A stretch of 64,000 nt of DNA from Candidatus Forterrea multitransposorum CG_2015-17_Forterrea_25_41 (GTDB taxonomy: Archaea; Iainarchaeota; Iainarchaeia; Iainarchaeales; CSSED10-239). The DNA lies in assembly GCA_009392915.1 (NCBI GenBank), contig CP045477.1, positions 704,001 to 768,000 of the forward strand, read 5' to 3'. A program made the translations under genes and the position numbers. Shown in pieces: positions 21,770-30,858 of the stretch (position 1 is its first letter; each line of letters begins with the position of its first letter). The notes beneath the pieces were generated by a model. That model had not been told where the DNA came from. It worked only from the letters and a program-made list of their open reading frames with translations, and did not search any database.

Positions 21770-22567
21770 ATGAATTCAAGATTTATAAATTTTTTTAAAC
21801 TTAATAAAGAAAAAAAAACTACATTACAACCAAAAATAAACTTTAGTTTAAAAAAAGCAATTAAAGGAAAAAAAGAAAAACTAGAAATTACAACTAAAGA
21901 AAATAAATATAAAAAAATAATGTATACTAAAAAAGCAAAAGACTTAATTAAAAATACACCTGGACTTTTAAGAGAGATTAGAGAATATTTAGAAGGTAAA
22001 AAATATAGGCCTAAAGTATACACTGTGTTTTTAAATAAAGAAAAAGTAAGACTTAGAATAGAAGAAATAAATAGACCTTCAAAAAACAGTATTTTAACAA
22101 ATAATTTTTATAAAATAGAAATTAAAGATGGAAAAGAAATCCATAAATTTTTTGTTAAAAAAAAGAAAATTACAACAAATACTCTTTGCTGCATAGGAAC
22201 TAGAGAAATGCAAGCTTTAGATATTATTAATCAAGCAGGATTTAATATTATTAAACCACATTTTGCATATAAAATAAAAGGAAAAGAAAGTTTTATTTTT
22301 TATGAGTATCAAGATAAAATAATTGATGCTGAAAAAGCTTTTCTTGAAAGAAAAATAAACTCTGAAGATGTTAAACAAATTTCAAGAAAATTAAATAATC
22401 TAGAAACAAGACTTAATGATTTTATAAAAGTAAAATATCCTAATGAAAATTTTAAAATCACAGATATTTCTTCAAGCACACAAAAAGAAAAACATGCTCT
22501 CCCTGTTTTTATTGATTTTGAAAACAAGAAACTATTTTTATTTGATCCAATACTTTCAAAAAATTAA
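21770..22567 (+). CDS. Hypothetical protein, paralogue of 784..1587
   Basis: See 784..1587. It has the conserved C-terminal LPVFIDFENKKLF[IL][YF]DP block. Confidence 0.5.
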   Translation: MNSRFINFFKLNKEKKTTLQPKINFSLKKAIKGKKEKLEITTKENKYKKIMYTKKAKDLIKNTPGLLREIREYLEGKKYRPKVYTVFLNKEKVRLRIEEINRPSKNSILTNNFYKIEIKDGKEIHKFFVKKKKITTNTLCCIGTREMQALDIINQAGFNIIKPHFAYKIKGKESFIFYEYQDKIIDAEKAFLERKINSEDVKQISRKLNNLETRLNDFIKVKYPNENFKITDISSSTQKEKHALPVFIDFENKKLFLFDPILSKN

Positions 22568-22615: not shown

Positions 22616-23113
22616 TTATTCATTCCAACCAAACTTATAACCTTGTGAAGTTACAATTTGGTTGTTTTTAATAGAATCAATATACAAGTAATATGTATCA
22701 CTACATTTATTATCATATCCTTCTAAAATAACATATCCTCTTACATCTTTATTCATTTTTGGATCAAGATATGCACCAGGAAAACCTACATTATCACTAG
22801 AAGTTACTTTTAATTCCATTAGGTTTGCAGAAGCATCTTTTAAATATACTTTATATCTTTGATCTTCTCCTTTAGGAACCCAATCAAAAGTAAAATATGC
22901 TTTATCACCTGCAACACAATCTTGATATTGCGCATTTACATTTATAATATAAGCAGGAAGAGGAGCATTATTACCTTGAGCAGTAATTTTAATTGCATCT
23001 CCTGTAGTAGTTAATGTAGTGGTTACAATTATTCCTAAGATTAATCCTAAGATTAAACCAAATAAACCATACACCATTATTTGTTTTTTATTTTTCATTT
23101 TTAAAAACCTCAT
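22616..23113 (-). CDS. Pilin-domain paralogue (secreted/anchored), homologous to 43929..44447 and to the N-terminus of 25654..30858
   Basis: C-terminal CSDTYYLYIDSIKNNQIVTSQGYKFGWNE versus CGDSYYLYIKTTKNNQTVTSQGYRFSWVD. The N-terminus is a hydrophobic anchor, not a clean G|Q-x3-E signal. Confidence 0.5.
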   Translation of the reverse strand: MRFLKMKNKKQIMVYGLFGLILGLILGIIVTTTLTTTGDAIKITAQGNNAPLPAYIINVNAQYQDCVAGDKAYFTFDWVPKGEDQRYKVYLKDASANLMELKVTSSDNVGFPGAYLDPKMNKDVRGYVILEGYDNKCSDTYYLYIDSIKNNQIVTSQGYKFGWNE

Positions 23114-23176
23114 TTTAATTTTTATAAATTATAATTAATTAAAGATATTGTTATAGAAAACCTTTATAAAATAAAC

Positions 23177-24337
23177 TTTTAAAAAAAAAGAAAGAAAACA
23201 AAATTGTGTTGCATAACTCTTTTTAAAAGTATTGTCTAACCTATTTTATTACTAGATAAAGGAGGTTAGACAATATGAATATTAAGAACGAAAAGATTAA
23301 TAAAAGGAACTGGTCAAAGATAAATTATGGAAAAACAAGACAAATCTTGTTTTTACTAGATAAAAACATTATTTTTAGTGAAAATGAAAGACTAGTTTCC
23401 CAAAATAAAAACAAACCAGGAAGACAATTTATATATAGTGATAGAATAATAGAACTATTAATTGATCTTAAAAATTATTTTAAATTTGATTATCGTAAAC
23501 TACAGGCATTCTGCCTGTTGTTTAATAATGTTATAAAAATAAAAACACCTGACTTTACAACTATTTGTAGAAGAATGCACAAATTAGAATTATTTCTAAA
23601 AAATATAAAAACAAAAAAAGAACCAACCTTTATAGCTATAGATGGTTCTGGACTTCAAACTACTAATCGAGGAGAATGGCTTAGATTAATACACAAAAAA
23701 GGAAAAATAAACTTAAGAAATGGATTTGTAAAATTAGTGATTGCAACAGATGTTGCATCTGGAGAAATAACTGGAGTGTATATTTCAGATGATTCTGATT
23801 TTGAAAATAAAAGCTTATCAGATTTATTATACCAAACAATAAATAATCAAAACCAAGAAGTCAAAGGACTTCTTGGAGATGGGGCATACGATTCTTATGA
23901 TAACTTTGATATGCTTGATGATATGGGAATAAAACCAATTATCAAAATCAGAAAGAATGCAATTACAACAGAACCTAATGACGATTATTTAAAAAGAAGA
24001 AGAAAACTTGGAAAAAAGAAAAAAATAAAAAGAATTGAAGTTGCAAAAAAGCAACTTAAAAATGTAGATGACTGGAAACAAAAAAATGAGTATAATAAAA
24101 GGTGGGTTGTTGAATACACGTTTAGTGTATTCAAAAGACTATTCGGACATAGTGTGTACTCTAAAAGAAAGAAATATGTCAAAAATGAAGTAATTTCTAA
24201 AGTAAATTTGTATAATAAATTATTAAATATCAATTAAGAAAAAAATAAAATGAATTAAAAAAAGAAATAAGCTAAAAATATTGTGTAAAACACAATATTT
24301 GTGCAACACAATTTTAAAAAAAAAGAAAGAAAACAAA
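23177..24337. mobile_element. IS-type insertion element with inverted termini (~TTGTGTTGCA, about 23204-23214 / 24301-24311), flanked by identical 26-bp direct repeats
   Basis: The direct repeat TTTTAAAAAAAAAGAAAGAAAACAAA lies at 23177-23202 and 24312-24337, immediately outside the inverted ends. Confidence 0.55.
23275..24237 (+). CDS. DDE transposase (IS4/IS5-like)
   Basis: Blocks IAIDGSGL, LLGDGAYDS and VVEYTFSVFKRLFG give the D, D, E/K pattern of IS4/IS5 transposases. The RBS AAAGGAGG is embedded in a 10-bp-stem hairpin TTGTCTAACC(23233-23242)/GGTTAGACAA(23264-23273). Confidence 0.6.
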   Translation: MNIKNEKINKRNWSKINYGKTRQILFLLDKNIIFSENERLVSQNKNKPGRQFIYSDRIIELLIDLKNYFKFDYRKLQAFCLLFNNVIKIKTPDFTTICRRMHKLELFLKNIKTKKEPTFIAIDGSGLQTTNRGEWLRLIHKKGKINLRNGFVKLVIATDVASGEITGVYISDDSDFENKSLSDLLYQTINNQNQEVKGLLGDGAYDSYDNFDMLDDMGIKPIIKIRKNAITTEPNDDYLKRRRKLGKKKKIKRIEVAKKQLKNVDDWKQKNEYNKRWVVEYTFSVFKRLFGHSVYSKRKKYVKNEVISKVNLYNKLLNIN

Positions 24338-24366
24338 TAAAAACATAAACTTCTTAAATATTAAAT

Positions 24367-25641
24367 ATGCAAACATTTAATTGTGATCTTCATTATCACT
24401 CTCCATATGCAGCCGCTTGTTCTAAAAACATAACCATACCTTTACTTGCACAAGAAGCTAGAAAAAAAGGTTTAGATATTTTAACTACAGCAGACATCCT
24501 ACACCCTGTTTGGCTTAATCACGTTAAAGAAAACTTAATTGAAGAAAATGATTGTTTTAGATACAAAGAAATCATTGAAGGAAAAAAAATATATTTTCTC
24601 TTAGGAACAGAAGTTGAAACTGAAGGAAGAGTACATCATCTTCTTTATTTTAAAAATTTTAAACATATTGAAGAATTTAAAAAAGAAATTAAAAACTTTT
24701 GTCAAGATATGTCTGTTTATGGAAGTGGAAGAACAAAACTTAAAACTACTGCAGAAAATTTATTAAACCTCTGTAAAAAACTAGAAATAATTATTGCTCC
24801 TGCACATGTCTTTACCCCTTATTTTGGAATATTTGCACATTTTAATTCTTTAAAAGAGGCGTATGGTAAAAACTGGGAATATGTTAAGTTTATTGAACTT
24901 GGACTTTCAGCAGATACAAAAATTGCAAACACAATTCCAGAACTTAAAAATATTAAATTTTTTTCATTTTCAGATTCTCATTCTCCTTTAAGTTATAGAA
25001 TAGGGAGAGAATATATTTCTCTTGAGATGGAAAGAGCAAACTTTTCTTCTTTTAAAGATCTACTTGAAAATAAAAAAGGAAAATTACTTTATAATGTAGG
25101 ATATAACCCAAGAGAAGGAAAGTATGGTTTAACTGCTTGCTCTAAATGTTATCAACATTATACTTTAAAACAAGCTATTGAAAATAAATGGAAATGTTCT
25201 GTTTGTAAAAAAAGTATTAAAAAAGGAGTTTTAGAAAGAGCAGAAGAAATGGCAGCCTTACAAGGTAACTCTTCTTTAAAACAAATAACAAAAAGACCAG
25301 ATTATAAATATCTAATGCCTTTAGCTCAAGTTATCCAGATTGCAATTAATCAAAAAAATATTAATCATAAAAAAGTTATTGAAATTTATGATAAGTTTAT
25401 TGAAAAGTATACAGAGATTGAAACTATGCAAAGTATTCCTTTTGAAAAACTAAAAGAGATTGATGAAAATATTGCAAAGTACATTATTTCTTTTAGAAAA
25501 GACTTAGTTGTTTTCCATCCTGGCGGTGGAGGAAATTACGGAACTCCATTTATATTTTTCACAAAAGAAGAAAAAGAAAAAAAAGAAAAAGAAATTAATG
25601 AAAATCTTTATCTAAAAGATCTTCAAAAAAAATTATTTTAA
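24367..25641 (+). CDS. PHP-domain phosphoesterase with C-terminal Zn ribbon (COG1379-like)
   Basis: N-terminal CDLHYHSPYAA (PHP HxH motif). C-terminal CSKCYQHY...CSVCKK. Confidence 0.45.
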   Translation: MQTFNCDLHYHSPYAAACSKNITIPLLAQEARKKGLDILTTADILHPVWLNHVKENLIEENDCFRYKEIIEGKKIYFLLGTEVETEGRVHHLLYFKNFKHIEEFKKEIKNFCQDMSVYGSGRTKLKTTAENLLNLCKKLEIIIAPAHVFTPYFGIFAHFNSLKEAYGKNWEYVKFIELGLSADTKIANTIPELKNIKFFSFSDSHSPLSYRIGREYISLEMERANFSSFKDLLENKKGKLLYNVGYNPREGKYGLTACSKCYQHYTLKQAIENKWKCSVCKKSIKKGVLERAEEMAALQGNSSLKQITKRPDYKYLMPLAQVIQIAINQKNINHKKVIEIYDKFIEKYTEIETMQSIPFEKLKEIDENIAKYIISFRKDLVVFHPGGGGNYGTPFIFFTKEEKEKKEKEINENLYLKDLQKKLF

Positions 25642-25653
25642 AAAATACTAATT

Positions 25654-28600
25654 TTAAACAGGGATTTGTACTCTTACAATTACAACTCCAGAACCACCTG
25701 AAAGACCTCTTGTACCACTACCAGAAGCTTTTCCATCCCCACCATTACCAGTATTTGGAGCACCTGCAGAACCACTATTTTCACGAGAATTACCTCCTGC
25801 AGCATAAATTACATTTGATCCAGTTATGTCATTTGAGGTACCAGGTCCTCCTACACCATATCCAGGAGGAGATGCCCAACAACTACCAGAACCTCCAGAA
25901 CCAGTACCACCTCTATTTTGAGGAGGACAAGCATAATTTGTAGAAGATGATCCTCCAGAACCTCCAGATGCTATTGTTCCATTAAAGAAAGAATACCCAC
26001 CTGCAGTTCCTGCTGTATTATAAGATCCACCAGATCCACCAGATCCCACTACAACATCATAAGTGTCAGCAGAACTGGATACAAGTCCATAATATCTATA
26101 TTGGCCGGCATTTCCACCATTACCATTATAACCACCACCACCACCACCACCGCCGACGACTAAGTATTCTAACATATACATTGGGAAGTCTATATTTATA
26201 GTGTAAGTTCCAGTACCACTTCTAAATTTATGAACACGGTATGCATAACCTCCTGAAATTCCCTCGGTTACTGTTGCTGTACCTGTGTGAGTAGTAATTA
26301 TTTTTCTAACCTTTAAAGTGTAGGTTGCAGAGGTTGCACCTTGTGTAACATTAACAGTAATTGTTTTTAAATTACCATCAGAAATGCTTATAGGGCTTGA
26401 TGCTGATCCAGATGAAACAGTTGAACCATTTACAGTTATTGTTCCAGTACCAGTAGGAGTTACAGTAATACTGTTAGTTGTACTAATTAAATAAAAAATA
26501 TCATTATAATTATATGTATTTGAATTAAAAGCAAATCCAGAAGGATTATTACTTAATTCTAAATTTGAAAGACCAGCAGGAATTGTTACGTTTATACTGC
26601 TTTGACTTCCCCAACAACCGTTTGTAGATCTTGCTCTAAAATAATAGGTGCCATTAGAATTTACTGTTTGAGGAGTGCCTCCTAAAGAGGTACTAGTACC
26701 CATTGATGTAGTTCCTTGGAAATATATAGTTCCACCTGAACCACCAGTTGCAGAAATGGTTGCAAACCCAGGACCACTATTTTGAAGAGATATACTTACA
26801 CTTCCTGGTTGAGAAAGTATAGTTGCAGTAACTGGAACTCTTGTTGTTAAATTACAAGTTCCGCCTGTCACTCCTACATAATAAGTTGTTGTCCAATTTA
26901 GAAGTGGAGTTGTAAAACTATTTCCTGTTGCAATTGGAGAACCACCAGTTGATGAAGTATACCATTCAATAGTTCCGCTTGTTGTAGTTGCACCTAAAGT
27001 TACAGAACCATTACCACATCTTTCTCCAGGAGTAACATTTACTGTTGGTGGAGATGCAATAGTCACTGTTTTTGAAACACAACTTGTTGTATTACAAGTA
27101 CCTGAAAGTCTTGCATAATAAGTTGTAGTTGAGGTTGGACTTACAGTTAAACTTGAAGAAGATCCTAATGAAATTGCAGTCCCACAAGTTCCAGCATACC
27201 ATTGATATGTAGCACCAGTTCCAACAGTTCCACCTATTGCAGTTAAAGTAGTTGGAGATCCAGAACATACACTTGTATTTCCAGTAATTGAGGTTGGAGC
27301 AACTGAAGGTGTATTAAATGAAACAGTTGCACTTCCTTGAGTACCCCAAGTACCAGAAGTAGATCTTGCTCTAAAATAATAAGTTCCAGGACTTGAAACA
27401 ACTTCTGATGTTGAAGCATTCATTGTACTGGTACCATTAGAAGTTGTGCCTTGATAATAAATTGTTCCATTAGCACCACCAGTTGCAGTTAAAGTTGCAT
27501 TAGCATTACAAGTTGCCCCACCACCTAAAACAGTTACTGGATCAGGAGTTATATCTACATTATAATAACCTTGAACTAAATCACTTGAAGTCCATCCTGT
27601 TTTATAAGCAATTGCTTTTAATGGAGTTGGAGAGTTAATTAAAACACTTTCTCCATGATTAATAACATTTACTCCACCTTGAACAGGTGTAGAGTTGTCT
27701 AAAGTATAACTGATTTGTGCTCCAGGCACAGAAGTAATAACTACATTTTGTGCAGTTGAATAAGTTCCAGGTAAAGGACTAAAGGTTGGTGAATTTAGTT
27801 TAAAAGTATAATCTGCTTGAGAAACAGAACTTTCAAGATAACCAGACTTGTAAACTATTGCTTTTAAAGTTTGATTTCTGGTTACAGGGATTGAAGTTCC
27901 GAGATATTGAGTTGAACTTGATGTTGGAGTATCACCATTGGTTGTGTAATAAATACTATAAGGAAGAGGAGTTGTAGTTGATAGATCTACAAAAATATTA
28001 TTATTGTATGTTCCTGAAGGACTTGAGAAAGTAGCAGGATTTGCAATTAATTGAACAGTGAAAGTTTGTGTGGCAACAGGACTGGTTGAATAACCAAAAG
28101 CATAACAAACTGCTTTTAAAGTTGTAGTGGATGTAAAATTAATTGGAGAAGAATAAACTGTTCCATCATCTCTTGTTGGATCAGTTCCATCAGTTGTATA
28201 TCTTATGGTGCTTGAAGGTGTGGAACAACTTAAAGTAACATTAACACTATTTGTGTGGGTTCCACCGTTTGGTGAAAAGGTAGGAGTTGCAGCAGGAGCA
28301 TTTATAGTGTAAACACCAGTTGAAACATCACTTGAAGTCCAACCTGTTTTGTAAGTGATTGCACGTAAAGTAGAGGTTGAAGTGATTGGAACAGTTGACT
28401 CTCCACTATTGATTTGTGTACCAGTTGTCTGTGTTGGAGTTGCTCCATTTATAGTGTATCTGATTTGGGCACCAGCAACAGAAGTTATTGCTACAGATTG
28501 AGAATCTGAATATGCACCAGGAGAAGGACTAAAGGTTGGTGCATTTAATTTGAAGACATAATCTGCTTGAGTGACAGAACTTGCAAGATAACCAGGCTTA

Positions 28601-30858
28601 TAAACAATTGCTTTTAAAGTTTGATTTCTGGTTACAGGGATTGAAGTTCCGAGATATTGAGTTGAACTTGAAGTTGGAGTATCTCCATTTGTTGTATAAT
28701 AAATACTATAAGGAAGAGGAGTTGTGGTTGATAGGTCGACAAAAATATTATTATTGTATGTTCCTGAAGGACTTGAGAAAGTAGCAGGACTTGCAATTAA
28801 TTGAACAGTGAAAGTTTGTGTAGCAACAGGACTGGTTGAATAACCAGAAGCATAACAAACTGCTTTTAAAGTTGTAGTGGATGTAAAATTAATTGGAGAA
28901 GAATAAACTGTTCCATCCTCTCTTGTTGGATCAGTTCCATCAGTTGTATATCTTATGGTGCTTGAAGGGGTTGTACAACTTAAAGTTACATTAACACTAT
29001 TTGTAAAAGTACCACCGTTTGGACTAAAGGCAGGAGTTGCAGCAGGAGCATTAATAGTATAAACACCAGTTGAAACATCACTTGAAGTCCAACCTGTTTT
29101 GTAAGTGATTGCACGTAAAGTAGAGGTTGAAGTGATTGGAACAGTTGACTCTCCACTATTGATTTGTGTACCAGTTGTCTGTGTTGGAGTTGCTCCATTT
29201 ATAGTGTATCTGATTTGGGCACCAGCAACAGAAGTTATTGCTACAGATTGAGAATCTGAATATGCACCAGGAGAAGGACTAAAGGTTGGTGCATTTAATT
29301 TGAAGACATAATCTGCTTGAGTGACAGAACTTGCAAGATAACCAGGCTTATAAACAATTGCTTTTAAAGTTTGATTTCTGGTTACAGGGATTGAAGTTCC
29401 GAGATATTGAGTTGAACTTGAAGTTGGAGTATCTCCATTTGTTGTATAATAAATACTATAAGGAAGAGGAGTTGTAGTTGATAAATCAACAAAAATATTA
29501 TTATTATAAGTTCCTGAAGGAAGAGAAAAGATTGCAATATTAGCAGGAAGAGTAACATTATAATCTGCTTGAGATATTGGACCGGTATTTGAACCTACAG
29601 CTGCCATTGCCTTAATAGTTACAGGAGATGATATGTTAATTGGACTTGAATAAACTGGACTTAAAAGAGTAGGATCAAAACCACTTGTGGTATAATGAAT
29701 AGTTGCACCAGGATTTGAATTACTTAAAGTAATATTTTGTATTGTAGAATAATCTCCTGCAGGAGGATTAAAAATAATAGGATCTAAAGGTACAAAGAAA
29801 CTATAAGTAAAAGTTGAAACTGAACTATCATTATAATTTTCTCTACAAGCAATTGCTTTTATGGTAGAGTCTGCAGAAACATTTATTGGAGAAGTATATT
29901 CTGAAAAGCTACCTGAACAATCAGGAATAGAAGAATCTAAAGTATAATAAATAGTTGAAGAAGAGGTTGCACTTGAAAGAACAACATTAATTGGATCTTC
30001 TAAATTTATAGAACTATCAGGAGTTGCAGTTACTGAAGATACAGTATCATAAGAAACTGTGTAAGTTCCAGAAGCAATTCCAGATTTAACACTGTTATAT
30101 TCAGAATATGCCATAATAGTTGTTCCAGGACTAATTGAAATAGGAAGCCCTAAAGTATAAGGTATACCGCTAGTATAAGGATCACTACCATCTATTGTAT
30201 AATAAACAGAAAAACTTGGATCAGATACATCTAAAGTTATAGTTGATGGAAAAGAAAAATAATTATAAGAACCAGGAACAGGATTAAATAATGGTCTTGA
30301 AATCACTGTTGTTTTAGGACCACTATCAGACCAATTAAAAGAATATCTAGAAGATTTTTTGGATTGATTATTTTTTGAAACTTCTATAGATAAATAATAA
30401 GAATCTCCACAAGAACCATTACCTAAATCAATATCTGAAACAATTAAATTATTTGTAATAATTGGATTTAAGTTATCTTCGGGAATAATATTCCCATCTA
30501 AAATAACAGTGTAATCTCCCTCATTTAAAACATCATTATCTTTATTTTCAATAATTAATTTATAAGTACCCTCTCTCGATAAAGGTTTCCAAGAAAAAGA
30601 TAAAAGCCCAATTTTTCTTAAAGTTCCACCTACATCAATAGTTTCACAATCTAAATAATTAGCTTTAACAGAAGTTATTGTTGGAGGTAAAGGACCATCA
30701 GTTGAAGAAGAAACATCATCAACTTGTTCTGATGCTGAATCTCTTGATTGACCACCTAGAGAAACTAAAATAGTTACAATAATTACAGCAACTAATACAC
30801 CACCACCAATCAATATTAAAGTTTCTAAATTACCTTGACCTTTTTTTGATGGTAGCAT
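25654..30858 (-). CDS. Giant (1734 aa) pilin-signal adhesin-like protein: class III signal plus pilin domain, chitobiase-C-type repeats (tandemly duplicated), Ig-like repeats and a Gly-rich C-terminus
   Basis: N-terminus MLPSKKGQGNLETLILIGGGVLVAVII...GGQSRDSA...CGDSYYLSIEVSKNNQ is homologous to the 43929 pilin. Repeats carry IRYTTDGTDPT motifs. Ig-like repeats carry C..G..TLTA.GG...YQWY...TYYAR..G.C. The tail has GGGGGGGG and further Gly-rich segments. Confidence 0.6.
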   Translation of the reverse strand: MLPSKKGQGNLETLILIGGGVLVAVIIVTILVSLGGQSRDSASEQVDDVSSSTDGPLPPTITSVKANYLDCETIDVGGTLRKIGLLSFSWKPLSREGTYKLIIENKDNDVLNEGDYTVILDGNIIPEDNLNPIITNNLIVSDIDLGNGSCGDSYYLSIEVSKNNQSKKSSRYSFNWSDSGPKTTVISRPLFNPVPGSYNYFSFPSTITLDVSDPSFSVYYTIDGSDPYTSGIPYTLGLPISISPGTTIMAYSEYNSVKSGIASGTYTVSYDTVSSVTATPDSSINLEDPINVVLSSATSSSTIYYTLDSSIPDCSGSFSEYTSPINVSADSTIKAIACRENYNDSSVSTFTYSFFVPLDPIIFNPPAGDYSTIQNITLSNSNPGATIHYTTSGFDPTLLSPVYSSPINISSPVTIKAMAAVGSNTGPISQADYNVTLPANIAIFSLPSGTYNNNIFVDLSTTTPLPYSIYYTTNGDTPTSSSTQYLGTSIPVTRNQTLKAIVYKPGYLASSVTQADYVFKLNAPTFSPSPGAYSDSQSVAITSVAGAQIRYTINGATPTQTTGTQINSGESTVPITSTSTLRAITYKTGWTSSDVSTGVYTINAPAATPAFSPNGGTFTNSVNVTLSCTTPSSTIRYTTDGTDPTREDGTVYSSPINFTSTTTLKAVCYASGYSTSPVATQTFTVQLIASPATFSSPSGTYNNNIFVDLSTTTPLPYSIYYTTNGDTPTSSSTQYLGTSIPVTRNQTLKAIVYKPGYLASSVTQADYVFKLNAPTFSPSPGAYSDSQSVAITSVAGAQIRYTINGATPTQTTGTQINSGESTVPITSTSTLRAITYKTGWTSSDVSTGVYTINAPAATPTFSPNGGTHTNSVNVTLSCSTPSSTIRYTTDGTDPTRDDGTVYSSPINFTSTTTLKAVCYAFGYSTSPVATQTFTVQLIANPATFSSPSGTYNNNIFVDLSTTTPLPYSIYYTTNGDTPTSSSTQYLGTSIPVTRNQTLKAIVYKSGYLESSVSQADYTFKLNSPTFSPLPGTYSTAQNVVITSVPGAQISYTLDNSTPVQGGVNVINHGESVLINSPTPLKAIAYKTGWTSSDLVQGYYNVDITPDPVTVLGGGATCNANATLTATGGANGTIYYQGTTSNGTSTMNASTSEVVSSPGTYYFRARSTSGTWGTQGSATVSFNTPSVAPTSITGNTSVCSGSPTTLTAIGGTVGTGATYQWYAGTCGTAISLGSSSSLTVSPTSTTTYYARLSGTCNTTSCVSKTVTIASPPTVNVTPGERCGNGSVTLGATTTSGTIEWYTSSTGGSPIATGNSFTTPLLNWTTTYYVGVTGGTCNLTTRVPVTATILSQPGSVSISLQNSGPGFATISATGGSGGTIYFQGTTSMGTSTSLGGTPQTVNSNGTYYFRARSTNGCWGSQSSINVTIPAGLSNLELSNNPSGFAFNSNTYNYNDIFYLISTTNSITVTPTGTGTITVNGSTVSSGSASSPISISDGNLKTITVNVTQGATSATYTLKVRKIITTHTGTATVTEGISGGYAYRVHKFRSGTGTYTINIDFPMYMLEYLVVGGGGGGGGYNGNGGNAGQYRYYGLVSSSADTYDVVVGSGGSGGSYNTAGTAGGYSFFNGTIASGGSGGSSSTNYACPPQNRGGTGSGGSGSCWASPPGYGVGGPGTSNDITGSNVIYAAGGNSRENSGSAGAPNTGNGGDGKASGSGTRGLSGGSGVVIVRVQIPV
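27571..29820 (-). repeat. Tandem 750-bp (250-aa) in-frame coding repeats, about 2.3 units near-identical at the DNA level, inside the giant adhesin gene
   Basis: tgaaacatcacttgaagtccaacctgtttt recurs at 28321 and 29071. Hundreds of bp are identical between 27790-28560, 28321-29070 and 29071-29530. Confidence 0.7.

What the first reader, a model, noticed from the sequence alone, without database searches (positions are those of the whole stretch)
23177..24337. IS4/IS5-like element flanked by 26-bp identical direct repeats, with an RBS-sequestering hairpin
The DDE transposase (23275-24237) is bounded by inverted termini (~TTGTGTTGCA, about 23204-23214 / 24301-24311). Immediately outside lie identical 26-bp direct repeats TTTTAAAAAAAAAGAAAGAAAACAAA. 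This is far longer than the 2-9-bp target duplications usual for IS4/IS5. It may be insertion into a pre-existing repeated A-rich motif, an unusual staggered-cut length, or part of a larger composite element. The transposase SD (AAAGGAGG) is paired within the 10-bp stem TTGTCTAACC/GGTTAGACAA. This is a classic translational throttle. The IS marks the surrounding region as accessory.
Basis: seen in the sequence. Interest (0 to 1): 0.5.

Follow-up and report, generated by a model that had tools for sequence, protein, structure and literature searches.

The report
IS5 element with hybrid flanking repeat
This is an ordinary 1,112-bp IS5-family insertion sequence of a tiny DPANN archaeon that duplicates 8 bp of target. 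The striking 26-bp flanking repeat arises because this sequence pairs the left junction of one insertion with the right junction of a second insertion 15 bp away, so it is not a new kind of transposition.

Summary
There is an intact DDE transposase (23275-24237), perfect terminal inverted repeats, an exact 26-bp direct repeat, and a strong hairpin burying the Shine-Dalgarno sequence and AUG.

The element is a 1,112-bp IS5-family IS (23202-24313). Identical copies occur at four or more genomic sites in public metagenome contigs. At three other sites, and in four contigs of this very site, the copy is flanked by a perfect 8-bp target duplication.

At the window's site the population carries two insertion alleles 15 bp apart in the same orientation: A1 (TSD GAAAACAA) and A2 (TSD TTAAAAAA). 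The window combines the A1 left junction with the A2 right junction. That yields a 23-bp host duplication (8+7+8), which reads as 26 bp because the IS begins with A and ends with TT.

I cannot tell whether this pairing is an unphased assembly or consensus join, or a real recombinant chromosome. Seven of 16 other IS-spanning contigs have non-cognate flanks.

The leader hairpin is conserved with compensatory changes in seven relatives (48-71% protein identity). It lies just after a conserved TATA-like box, which suggests IS10-like insulation against read-through transcripts.

The organism is very probably Ca. Forterrea multitransposorum. Low novelty.

The parts
23202..24313 (+). Complete IS5-family insertion sequence, 1,112 bp
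   Evidence: The same 1,112 bp, with 0 differences, is found in 16 other spanning contigs at sites A-D. The boundaries are defined by where the flanks diverge.
23202..23213 (+). Left terminal inverted repeat AATTGTGTTGCA
   Evidence: It is conserved in relatives L028, L031-L033, L051 and L052.
24302..24313 (+). Right terminal inverted repeat TGCAACACAATT
23275..24237 (+). DDE transposase, 320 aa (D123, D202, E280; YREK motif 273-287)
   Evidence: Pfam PF01609 and PF13737. NCBIfam NF033579 at 195 bits. Motif positions. 26.5% identity to IS903 transposase over 98% of its length.
23220..23228 (+). TATA-like box TTTTTAAAA between IRL and the hairpin (inferred archaeal promoter of the transposase)
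   Evidence: An equivalent box (TTTTAAATA, TTTATAAAT, TTTAAAAAT, TTTATAAATA, TTTAAAAAG) sits at the same place in all relatives. Promoter function is inferred, not shown.
23229..23276 (+). Leader hairpin. The 5' arm is 23229-23250 and the 3' arm is 23255-23276. The 3' arm contains the SD GGAGG (23261-23265), the spacer, and the AU of the AUG.
   Evidence: -26.5 kcal/mol, z = -6.1. Every pair from AUG+1 to -9 is kept by compensatory changes in relatives.
23179..23201 (.). Left copy of the 23-bp duplicated host DNA = a (TTAAAAAA, 23179-23186) + m (AAAGAAA, 23187-23193) + b (GAAAACAA, 23194-23201). It ends in the A1 left junction.
24314..24336 (.). Right copy of the 23-bp duplicated host DNA = a (24314-24321) + m (24322-24328) + b (24329-24336). 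It begins with the A2 right junction.
24278..24298 (+). Subterminal 9-bp palindrome ATATTGTGT-AAA-ACACAATAT just inside the right IR (role unknown)
   Evidence: Seen directly in the sequence. Relative L031 has ACATTGTGC-TTT-GCACAATGT at the same place.

Best explanation
The element is an intact, recently active IS5-family insertion sequence (1,112 bp, 12-bp terminal IRs, one 320-aa DDE transposase) in a ~26% GC DPANN archaeon, very probably Ca. Forterrea multitransposorum. It inserts with an 8-bp staggered cut.

The same A/T-rich divergent intergenic region was hit twice in the population, 15 bp apart and in the same orientation:
- Allele A1 duplicates GAAAACAA.
- Allele A2 duplicates TTAAAAAA.

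The window pairs the A1 left junction with the A2 right junction. The host segment between the two cut sites (8+7+8 = 23 bp) therefore appears on both sides. It reads as 26 identical bases only because the IS starts with A and ends with TT. I judge the most likely origin of this pairing to be an unphased join. All IS copies are identical, 1.1 kb is longer than short-read linkage, and both junction alleles co-occur in samples. An assembler or a population-consensus curation can therefore pair either left junction with either right junction.

Separately, the transposase leader forms a conserved hairpin that buries the SD and the AUG. The conserved TATA-like box sits immediately 5' of the hairpin. 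A TATA-to-start distance of about 26 nt would place the element's own transcription start in the hairpin loop (about 23250). I infer that native transcripts lack the 5' arm and are translatable, while read-through transcripts from the host carry both arms and are silenced. This would be IS10-type fold-back insulation.

Shown: sequence anatomy, family assignment, 8-bp TSDs, the four junction types, and hairpin covariation.
Inferred: the promoter and transcription start, the translational effect, and the origin of the hybrid pairing.
For: Family.

8-bp TSDs in cognate spanning contigs:
- Site B, TTTTTTAT (L005, L006/L041).
- Site C, TAAAATAT (L004/L038).
- Site D, TAAATATT (L010/L047).
- Site A, allele A1, GAAAACAA (L001, L012, L044, L061).

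Junction types at site A:
- A2 left junction (...CTTTTAAAAAA|IS) is in L002, L003, L008, L024, L025 and L042.
- A2 right junction (IS|TTAAAAAAAAAGAAAG...) is in L014, L016-L020 and L054-L059.
- These two overlap by exactly 8 bp and rebuild the same empty site as A1 does.
- The window is A1-L + A2-R. L042 is the reciprocal form, A2-L + A1-R, with a 15-bp deletion.

The repeat is host DNA: IS-free relative L027 carries ...TTTTTAAAAAAAAAGAAAGAAAA and AAAGAAAACAAATAAAAAC once each.

Unreliable linkage across the IS:
- All IS copies are 1112/1112 identical.
- 7 of 16 other spanning contigs join non-cognate flanks: A-L+B-R in five, A-L+D-R in one, A2-L+A1-R in one.
- All long SPAdes contigs (81-128 kb) stop at the IS.
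- One of them (L060) starts exactly at the base where A1-R and A2-R converge.
- Flank SNPs are not linked to junction type.

Literature: the curated 'population genome' of Ca. Forterrea from short-insert reads reports identical transposons, 'SNPs and indels flanking one transposon', and two strains at about 1:1.5 (PMC5905446). The transposase cluster includes an 839,632-bp contig.

Hairpin. SD-like cores lie upstream of 38% of long ORFs against 9.7% background. RBS-burying leaders that lower transposase translation are shown experimentally for ISPpu9 and IS200 (PMC8450116; PMC4513863).
Against: - No spanning contig with the cognate A2-L + A2-R pair was recovered, and no true empty site was found in this population. 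A2 as a simple insertion is therefore inferred from its two halves.
- Two independent hits 15 bp apart in the same orientation is a coincidence unless the site is a hot spot.
- If the window comes from a majority-rule curated genome and only cognate strains existed, both junctions should come from the same strain. That favours a real recombinant.
- The published study reports frequent homologous recombination around the transposons.
- The reciprocal deletion form appears in two samples (L042; L013 + L025).
- The transcription start, and hence the read-through-only model for the hairpin, is untested.
Confidence: 0.5

Rival explanations
1. The anatomy is the same (two 8-bp-TSD insertion alleles), but the window's A1-L + A2-R arrangement is a real chromosome. 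Homologous recombination inside the identical IS, between an A1 chromosome and an A2 chromosome, gave one product with a 23-bp flanking duplication (the window) and a reciprocal product with a 15-bp deletion (L042 type).
For: - The reciprocal A2-L + A1-R form is seen in a spanning contig (L042). It also appears as the only junction pair recovered from sample ERZ27293370 (L013, L025).
- Flank SNPs show all four combinations with junction type.
- The published population study infers pervasive homologous recombination concentrated at the transposons (PMC5905446).
Against: - No read-level or single-molecule linkage is available.
- The same contig set contains joins that cannot all be real: A-L with B-R in five contigs and with D-R in one, without the reciprocal B-L + A-R.
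- The window-type pair was not seen in any of the 16 other spanning contigs.
Confidence: 0.35
2. A single transposition event with an aberrantly long staggered cut (about 23-26 bp) produced the repeat. That would make this a variable or long-TSD element, like the ISAba32 subgroup of IS1202, recalled from memory as having TSDs of about 24-29 bp.
For: The repeat is exact and abuts both IS ends.
Against: - Eight cognate contigs at four sites have exactly 8 bp.
- The same site exists with an 8-bp TSD in four contigs.
- Each end of the 23-bp segment coincides with one of two independently observed 8-bp-TSD junction pairs.
- The transposase is a 320-aa IS5/IS903-like protein, not IS1202-like.
Confidence: 0.03
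3. The IS inserted between two pre-existing copies of an A-rich 26-bp host repeat, or the 26-mer is part of the element or of a larger composite element.
For: The region is very A/T-rich, and the upstream regions of the neighbouring pilin-like genes are paralogous in L027.
Against: - The 26-mer occurs nowhere else in the window even with 3 mismatches.
- Copies of the IS at sites B, C and D lack it.
- Alleles A1 and A2 each carry only one full copy.
- IS-free L027 has the left and right halves once each.
- There is no second IS copy in the window.
Confidence: 0.02
4. One allele derives from the other by a local transposase-mediated event rather than by an independent insertion from elsewhere. 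Examples are excision and re-insertion 15 bp away, or an IS-adjacent deletion for the L042 form. The window would then be a by-product of such local events.
For: - Same orientation, 15 bp apart.
- The IS is apparently present at site A in all contigs recovered, with no empty site.
- From memory: adjacent deletions and local events are known for IS903-type elements.
Against: - Neither junction shows an excision footprint.
- An adjacent deletion explains only A2-L + A1-R. It does not explain the A2 right junction with intact downstream host DNA.
- The model still requires a second full 8-bp-TSD insertion.
Confidence: 0.1

Closest known systems
   Same: - Single ~300-320-aa DDE transposase with PF13737 + PF01609 and the YREK motif.
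- About 1.1 kb long, with short terminal IRs and a fixed short TSD.
- Full-length similarity to IS903 transposase (26.5% over 98%).
- The archaeal host and the 8-bp TSD match the ISH1 subgroup.
   Different: - The TSD is 8 bp, not the 9 bp of IS903.
- The termini are AATTGTG..., not the GG(C) ends usual for IS903-like elements (from memory).
- It is only 26-31% identical to any annotated bacterial relative.
The 'transposons' of Candidatus Forterrea multitransposorum (Probst & Banfield 2018, PMC5905446)
   Same: - Diapherotrites/Iainarchaeota-type DPANN archaeon, with a genome of about 840 kb.
- Exactly duplicated transposase, with extra insertion points in subsets of cells.
- 'SNPs and indels flanking one transposon'.
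- A neighbouring variable 'chitobiase'-like giant gene.
- Assemblies break at the element.
Together these match what I see.
   Different: - The paper does not describe the element's family, ends, TSD length, the two insertion alleles or the leader hairpin.
- Identity of the window with that genome is inferred, not verified by accession.
IS10/IS50 protection from external promoters by mRNA fold-back (from memory: Davis, Simons & Kleckner 1985; Krebs & Reznikoff 1986), and RBS-burying leaders of ISPpu9 and IS200 (PMC8450116, PMC4513863)
   Same: - A stem in the transposase leader occludes the SD and the start codon.
- The 5' arm lies between the terminal IR/promoter and the predicted start of the native transcript, so only transcripts that enter from outside would contain it.
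   Different: - The host is archaeal, with a TATA-box promoter instead of sigma-70.
- No antisense RNA is evident.
- The transcription start and the effect on translation are untested here.
Long-TSD insertion sequences (IS1202 family, ISAba32 subgroup; about 24-29-bp TSDs, from memory)
   Same: Superficially the same picture: an IS flanked by a ~25-bp direct repeat.
   Different: - In those elements every copy has a long TSD, and the transposase belongs to a different, larger family.
- Here every cognate copy has 8 bp, and the long repeat is a hybrid of two alleles.

Membership tests
IS5 family insertion sequence | Transposase matches the family's curated profile above threshold | tested here: met
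   NCBIfam NF033579 transpos_IS5_2 at 195.3 bits against a cut-off of 140. The IS4, IS1182 and IS982 models all score far below their cut-offs. Pfam PF01609 and PF13737 match.
IS5 family insertion sequence | Catalytic DDE triad with the Y-x2-R-x3-E-x6-K signature | tested here: met
   D123 (AIDGSG), D202 (GDGAYD), and Y273/R276/E280/K287 (YNKRWVVEYTFSVFK). Assignment of the residues is by motif, not by structure.
IS5 family insertion sequence | Short terminal inverted repeats bounding a ~0.8-1.5-kb element with one transposase gene | tested here: met
   Perfect 12-bp IRs, 1,112 bp, one ORF.
IS5 family insertion sequence | Fixed short target-site duplication at independent copies | tested here: met
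   Perfect 8-bp TSDs at sites B, C and D and at allele A1, in 8 cognate contigs.
IS5 family insertion sequence | Named entry or nearest neighbour in ISfinder | not testable with these tools
   There is no ISfinder access.
ISH1 subgroup of IS5 (archaeal) | 8-bp TSD and an archaeal host | tested here: met
   8-bp TSD as above. The flanking genes are archaeal: TBP, AglB/STT3, ribosomal L21e, MJ0538 and MJ0043 domains. Relative L027 is titled as an Iainarchaeum-type MAG.
ISH1 subgroup of IS5 (archaeal) | Transposase clusters with ISH1-group transposases | not tested
   No ISH1 reference sequence was available. The nearest named homologues are 'IS5 family transposase' of Nitrosotenuis, Methanobacteriota and Cenarchaeum MAGs at 31-34% identity.
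IS903 subgroup of IS5 | 9-bp TSD | tested here: not met
   The TSD is 8 bp at every cognate copy.
Long-TSD insertion sequences (IS1202/ISAba32-like) | Every copy is flanked by a ~24-29-bp duplication made in one event | tested here: not met
   Only the window shows the long repeat. Eight cognate contigs have 8 bp, and the long repeat decomposes into two 8-bp TSDs plus 7 bp.
Fold-back (read-through) translational insulation of a transposase, IS10/IS50 type | Leader helix occluding the SD and the start codon | tested here: met
   21 bp in two stacked helices cover GGAGG through the AU of the AUG. Energy is -26.5 kcal/mol, z = -6.1.
Fold-back (read-through) translational insulation of a transposase, IS10/IS50 type | The structure is selected (conserved through compensatory changes) | tested here: met
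   In 7 relatives (48-71% aa identity) the pairs at offsets +1 to -9 from the A of the AUG are kept. At -2 they are UA/AU/GC, at -3 UA/CG/AU/GC, at -5 UA/CG/GC, and at -6 CG/AU/GC. The table is anchored on the AUG and taken from each sequence's own MFE fold. It is therefore descriptive, not a phylogeny-corrected test.
Fold-back (read-through) translational insulation of a transposase, IS10/IS50 type | The native transcript starts inside or after the 5' arm, so only external transcripts fold back | not testable with these tools
   The only support is the position of a conserved TATA-like box at 23220-23228, about 26 nt upstream of the loop. No RNA data are available.
Fold-back (read-through) translational insulation of a transposase, IS10/IS50 type | The hairpin lowers translation | not testable with these tools
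   This needs reporter fusions.

The most novel reading that the evidence does not exclude
Under this reading the 23-bp flanking duplication is real on single chromosomes. This intergenic spot would be a genuine hot spot that the IS hit twice, 15 bp apart and in the same orientation. Homologous recombination inside the identical IS copies then shuffled the junctions in vivo, producing both a 'long-TSD' form and a 'no-TSD, 15-bp deletion' form in a natural DPANN population. This would be a documented natural route by which anomalous TSD lengths arise without any change in transposase chemistry. It would sit next to the first covariation-supported case, as far as my searches show, of promoter-in-hairpin read-through insulation of a transposase in Archaea.
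Probability: 0.35. Interest if true: 0.4.

Novelty: new member of a known kind. Interest (0 to 1): 0.22.

Why it matters
The main value is as a caution. An apparently exceptional 26-bp 'target duplication' dissolves into two ordinary 8-bp events once other copies and other samples are compared. TSD lengths read from a single metagenome-derived or consensus genome can therefore mislead IS classification.

There are also positive results:
- The finding defines the ends, TSD length and family of the element that gave Ca. Forterrea multitransposorum its name.
- It shows that one intergenic site carries two insertion alleles.
- It gives covariation evidence that an archaeal IS5-type element keeps an SD/AUG-occluding leader hairpin placed just after its promoter. 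That prediction is testable.

Tried and rejected
- **Metagenome scans for the site.** Exact-pattern scans of metagenome contigs for the right flank and for the empty site or A2-R junction both returned nothing. JGI contigs carrying these strings do exist (L015, L016), so that collection evidently lacks these samples. No true empty site was found.
- **Genome scan for the IS end.** A genome-contig scan for the IS left end returned nothing. The second scan, with the start of the flanking gene, gave only L027.
- **TSDs of diverged relatives.** In L028-L034 the flanks on the two sides of these 1-2-kb contigs do not match at any length. They are probably collapsed or chimeric repeat contigs, so I did not use them.
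- **Markers inside the IS.** I looked for SNPs inside the IS to locate a recombination or chimera breakpoint. There are none, since all copies are identical.
- **Phasing by flank SNPs.** I tried to phase junction alleles with the flank SNPs at 22198/22201, 22459/22460, 20293/20314 and 25596. All combinations occur, so this is uninformative.
- **Alignment-based structure test.** MAFFT + RNAalifold on the leaders mis-registered the arms and found only the SD/anti-SD helix. I replaced it with an AUG-anchored pair table.
- **Rfam.** There was no family match in 23000-24500. The only hit was a chance one at E = 0.92.
- **Tandem double-insertion model (IS-23 bp-IS).** Rejected. The observed A2 right junction continues into host DNA rather than into an IS left end, and the A1 left junction is preceded by host DNA.
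- **Deriving A1 and A2 from a primary 23-bp duplication by deletions.** Rejected. This would need two independent 15-bp deletions that each happen to leave a perfect 8-bp repeat, with no microhomology at the deletion ends.
Full report
**1. Observation.**
- The 26-mer TTTTAAAAAAAAAGAAAGAAAACAAA occurs at 23177-23202 and 24312-24337. It occurs nowhere else in the window even with three mismatches, and none of 100 dinucleotide shuffles gave two matches.
- The ORF 23275-24237 encodes a 320-aa protein. It matches Pfam DDE_Tnp_1 and DDE_Tnp_1_5 and NCBIfam NF033579 'IS5 family transposase' at 195 bits against a cut-off of 140. IS4, IS1182 and IS982 models score far below their thresholds.
- The protein contains D123, D202 and the Y-x2-R-x3-E-x6-K signature.
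- Across bacterial plasmids it aligns end to end with IS903-type transposases at about 26-31% identity.
- The window (26% GC) holds only this one copy.

**2. True ends and normal target duplication.**
The exact protein is encoded on many public metagenome contigs (61-62 index blocks). I compared 16 distinct IS-spanning contigs.
- The shared sequence is always the same 1,112 bp with no differences. It runs from AATTGTGTTGCA to TGCAACACAATT, which is window 23202-24313.
- Where left and right flanks belong to the same locus, they show a perfect 8-bp direct repeat:
  - Site B (UPF0175 gene | FGE-sulfatase-like gene): TTTTTTAT.
  - Site C (TBP | AglB/STT3): TAAAATAT.
  - Site D (277-aa gene | CCA-adding enzyme): TAAATATT.
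- The element therefore makes 8-bp duplications.

**3. What the 26-bp repeat is.**
At the window's own locus (site A) other samples show two left junctions and two right junctions.

| Junction | Sequence |
|---|---|
| A1-L | ...TTAAAAAAAAAGAAAGAAAACAA\|IS |
| A1-R | IS\|GAAAACAAATAAAAAC... |
| A2-L | ...AAACTTTTAAAAAA\|IS |
| A2-R | IS\|TTAAAAAAAAAGAAAGAAAACAAATAAAAAC... |

- A1-L with A1-R occurs in four spanning contigs from four samples (L001, L012, L044, L061). This is a clean insertion with TSD GAAAACAA.
- A2-L and A2-R overlap by exactly 8 bp (TTAAAAAA). They reconstruct the very same empty site as A1 does, so they are the two halves of a second 8-bp-TSD insertion, 15 bp upstream and in the same orientation.
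- The window has A1-L with A2-R. The host segment from the A2 cut to the A1 cut is TTAAAAAA + AAAGAAA + GAAAACAA = 23 bp. It is therefore present on both sides, at 23179-23201 and 24314-24336.
- The host has TT before this segment and A after it, while the IS ends in TT and begins with A. The identity therefore extends to 26 bp.
- The reciprocal combination, A2-L with A1-R (a 15-bp deletion with no TSD), is seen in L042.
- An IS-free relative at about 96% identity (L027, a GTDB representative MAG titled Candidatus (I)ainarchaeum sp.) carries the A-rich left part and the right part once each, separated by a 304-aa pilin-like gene. This shows that the repeat is host DNA and was not pre-duplicated.

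**4. Is the hybrid real or an artefact?**
I cannot decide this with the data available.

Points favouring an unphased join:
- The IS copies are identical, so they carry no internal markers.
- Seven of the 16 other spanning contigs join non-cognate flanks. A-L goes with B-R in five and with D-R in one. These cannot all be true, and the reciprocal B-L + A-R is never seen.
- All long SPAdes contigs (81-128 kb) terminate at the IS. One of them (L060) begins exactly where A1-R and A2-R converge, so both right junctions co-occur within a sample.
- Flank SNPs are unlinked to junction type.

Points favouring a real recombinant:
- The reciprocal product recurs (L042; L013 + L025 from one sample).
- The literature supports recombination in this population. 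Probst & Banfield 2018 (PMC5905446) reconstructed a complete 'population genome' of Ca. Forterrea multitransposorum from Crystal Geyser short-insert data.
- That study reports exactly duplicated transposons, extra insertion points in subsets of cells, 'SNPs and indels flanking one transposon', two strains at about 1:1.5, and pervasive homologous recombination concentrated at the transposons.
The neighbouring variable chitobiase-like giant gene also matches the window.
- The window is therefore very probably this organism, although I could not verify an accession.

My estimates are about 0.5 for an unphased assembly or consensus join, 0.35 for a genuine recombinant chromosome, and the remainder for local-event or exotic models.

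**5. The leader hairpin.**
- Positions 23229-23276 fold into two stacked helices (14 + 7 bp) at -26.5 kcal/mol, z = -6.1. They pair the whole GGAGG (23261-23265), the spacer, and the AU of the AUG.
- I examined seven related elements whose transposases are 48-71% identical. The leader sequences differ, but in six of them (L028, L032, L033, L048, L051, L052) the minimum-free-energy fold is the same hairpin, ending at the start codon.
- In L031 the SD and 3' arm are tandemly duplicated, and the arms pair in a different register.
- The pairs are kept through double changes. At offset -3 they are UA/CG/AU/GC, and at -6 they are CG/AU/GC.
- A TATA-like box (TTTTTAAAA, 23220-23228, preceded by the conserved AACTC) lies between the left IR and the 5' arm in every relative.
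- With the usual archaeal TATA-to-start distance of about 26 nt (general knowledge), the element's own transcript would begin in the hairpin loop near 23250 and so lack the 5' arm. Transcripts entering from the host would carry both arms and be untranslatable.
- This is the logic of IS10/IS50 fold-back protection (from memory). RBS-burying leaders have been shown experimentally to lower transposase translation in ISPpu9 and IS200 (PMC8450116; PMC4513863).
- SD-like cores are enriched upstream of long ORFs in this window (38% against 9.7% background), so SD-dependent initiation is plausible here.
- The transcription start and the effect on translation are inferred, not shown. Rfam has no matching family.

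**6. Classification and novelty.**
- All testable defining features of the IS5 family are met.
- The 8-bp TSD and the archaeal host fit the ISH1 subgroup and do not fit IS903 (9 bp). The subgroup TSD values come from memory, and ISfinder could not be queried.
- It fails the defining feature of long-TSD elements such as IS1202/ISAba32.
- It is a new, or at least uncharacterised, member of a known kind. The presence of these transposons and of the indels next to one of them has already been published.
- Interest is low. The main lesson is methodological: an anomalous TSD in a consensus genome can be a hybrid of two ordinary insertion alleles. There is a modest biological bonus in the double hit at one site and in the conserved, promoter-adjacent, SD-occluding hairpin in an archaeal IS.

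Noticed in passing
L041 3465-14457 / L047 (not in the window): IS copies at sites B and D lie in direct orientation 10,992 bp apart. They enclose a diversity-generating retroelement (FGE-sulfatase-fold target gene, Avd, reverse transcriptase), HicAB, proteasome beta and aCPSF1. Each copy has its own 8-bp TSD, so these are two separate insertions, not a composite transposon.
   Followed up: partly
L027 4499-5513 (corresponds to window 23199-24325): A 96%-identical IS-free relative carries a 304-aa pilin-like paralogue, with a near-duplicate of the neighbouring gene's upstream region, exactly where the window has the IS. The extra segment is bounded by AAAGAAAA on both sides, so this intergenic spot is a gene-content variable point.
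   Followed up: partly
L046 around 5256 (site C left junction): One contig has ...AATTAAATATT|IS instead of ...AATAAAATAT|IS at site C. This gives an imperfect 9-bp repeat. Its last 11 bp are identical to the site-D left flank. The cause is unexplained; it could be strain divergence or conversion between copies.
   Followed up: no
window 24278-24298: A 9-bp palindrome ATATTGTGT/ACACAATAT lies just inside the right IR and repeats the terminal ACACAAT motif. Relative L031 has ACATTGTGC/GCACAATGT at the same place, with compensatory changes. L028, L032 and L033 lack it.
   Followed up: partly
L048 1-1990: Two copies of a 54%-identical relative are joined head to head, 42 bp apart, at the leader hairpin. 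This is probably a fold-back assembly or amplification artefact nucleated by the hairpin.
   Followed up: no
L031 400-445: In one relative the SD plus the 3' arm of the leader hairpin (AAAGAGGTTATACTATA) is tandemly duplicated. This gives two alternative partners for the single 5' arm.
   Followed up: no
window 25654-30858 (repeats about 27700-29521): The neighbouring 1,734-aa surface protein (Fn3_assoc/CHB_HEX_C repeats) contains ~750-bp internal repeats at 87-95% identity. Its length differs between assemblies (907-1,734 aa). It is probably the variable 'putative chitobiase' gene of the Forterrea paper.
   Followed up: partly
L060 position 1 (corresponds to window 24329): A 128-kb SPAdes contig begins exactly at GAAAACAA, the first base common to the A1 and A2 right junctions. 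This is an assembly-graph branch point, and it shows that both junction alleles coexist in that sample.
   Followed up: yes
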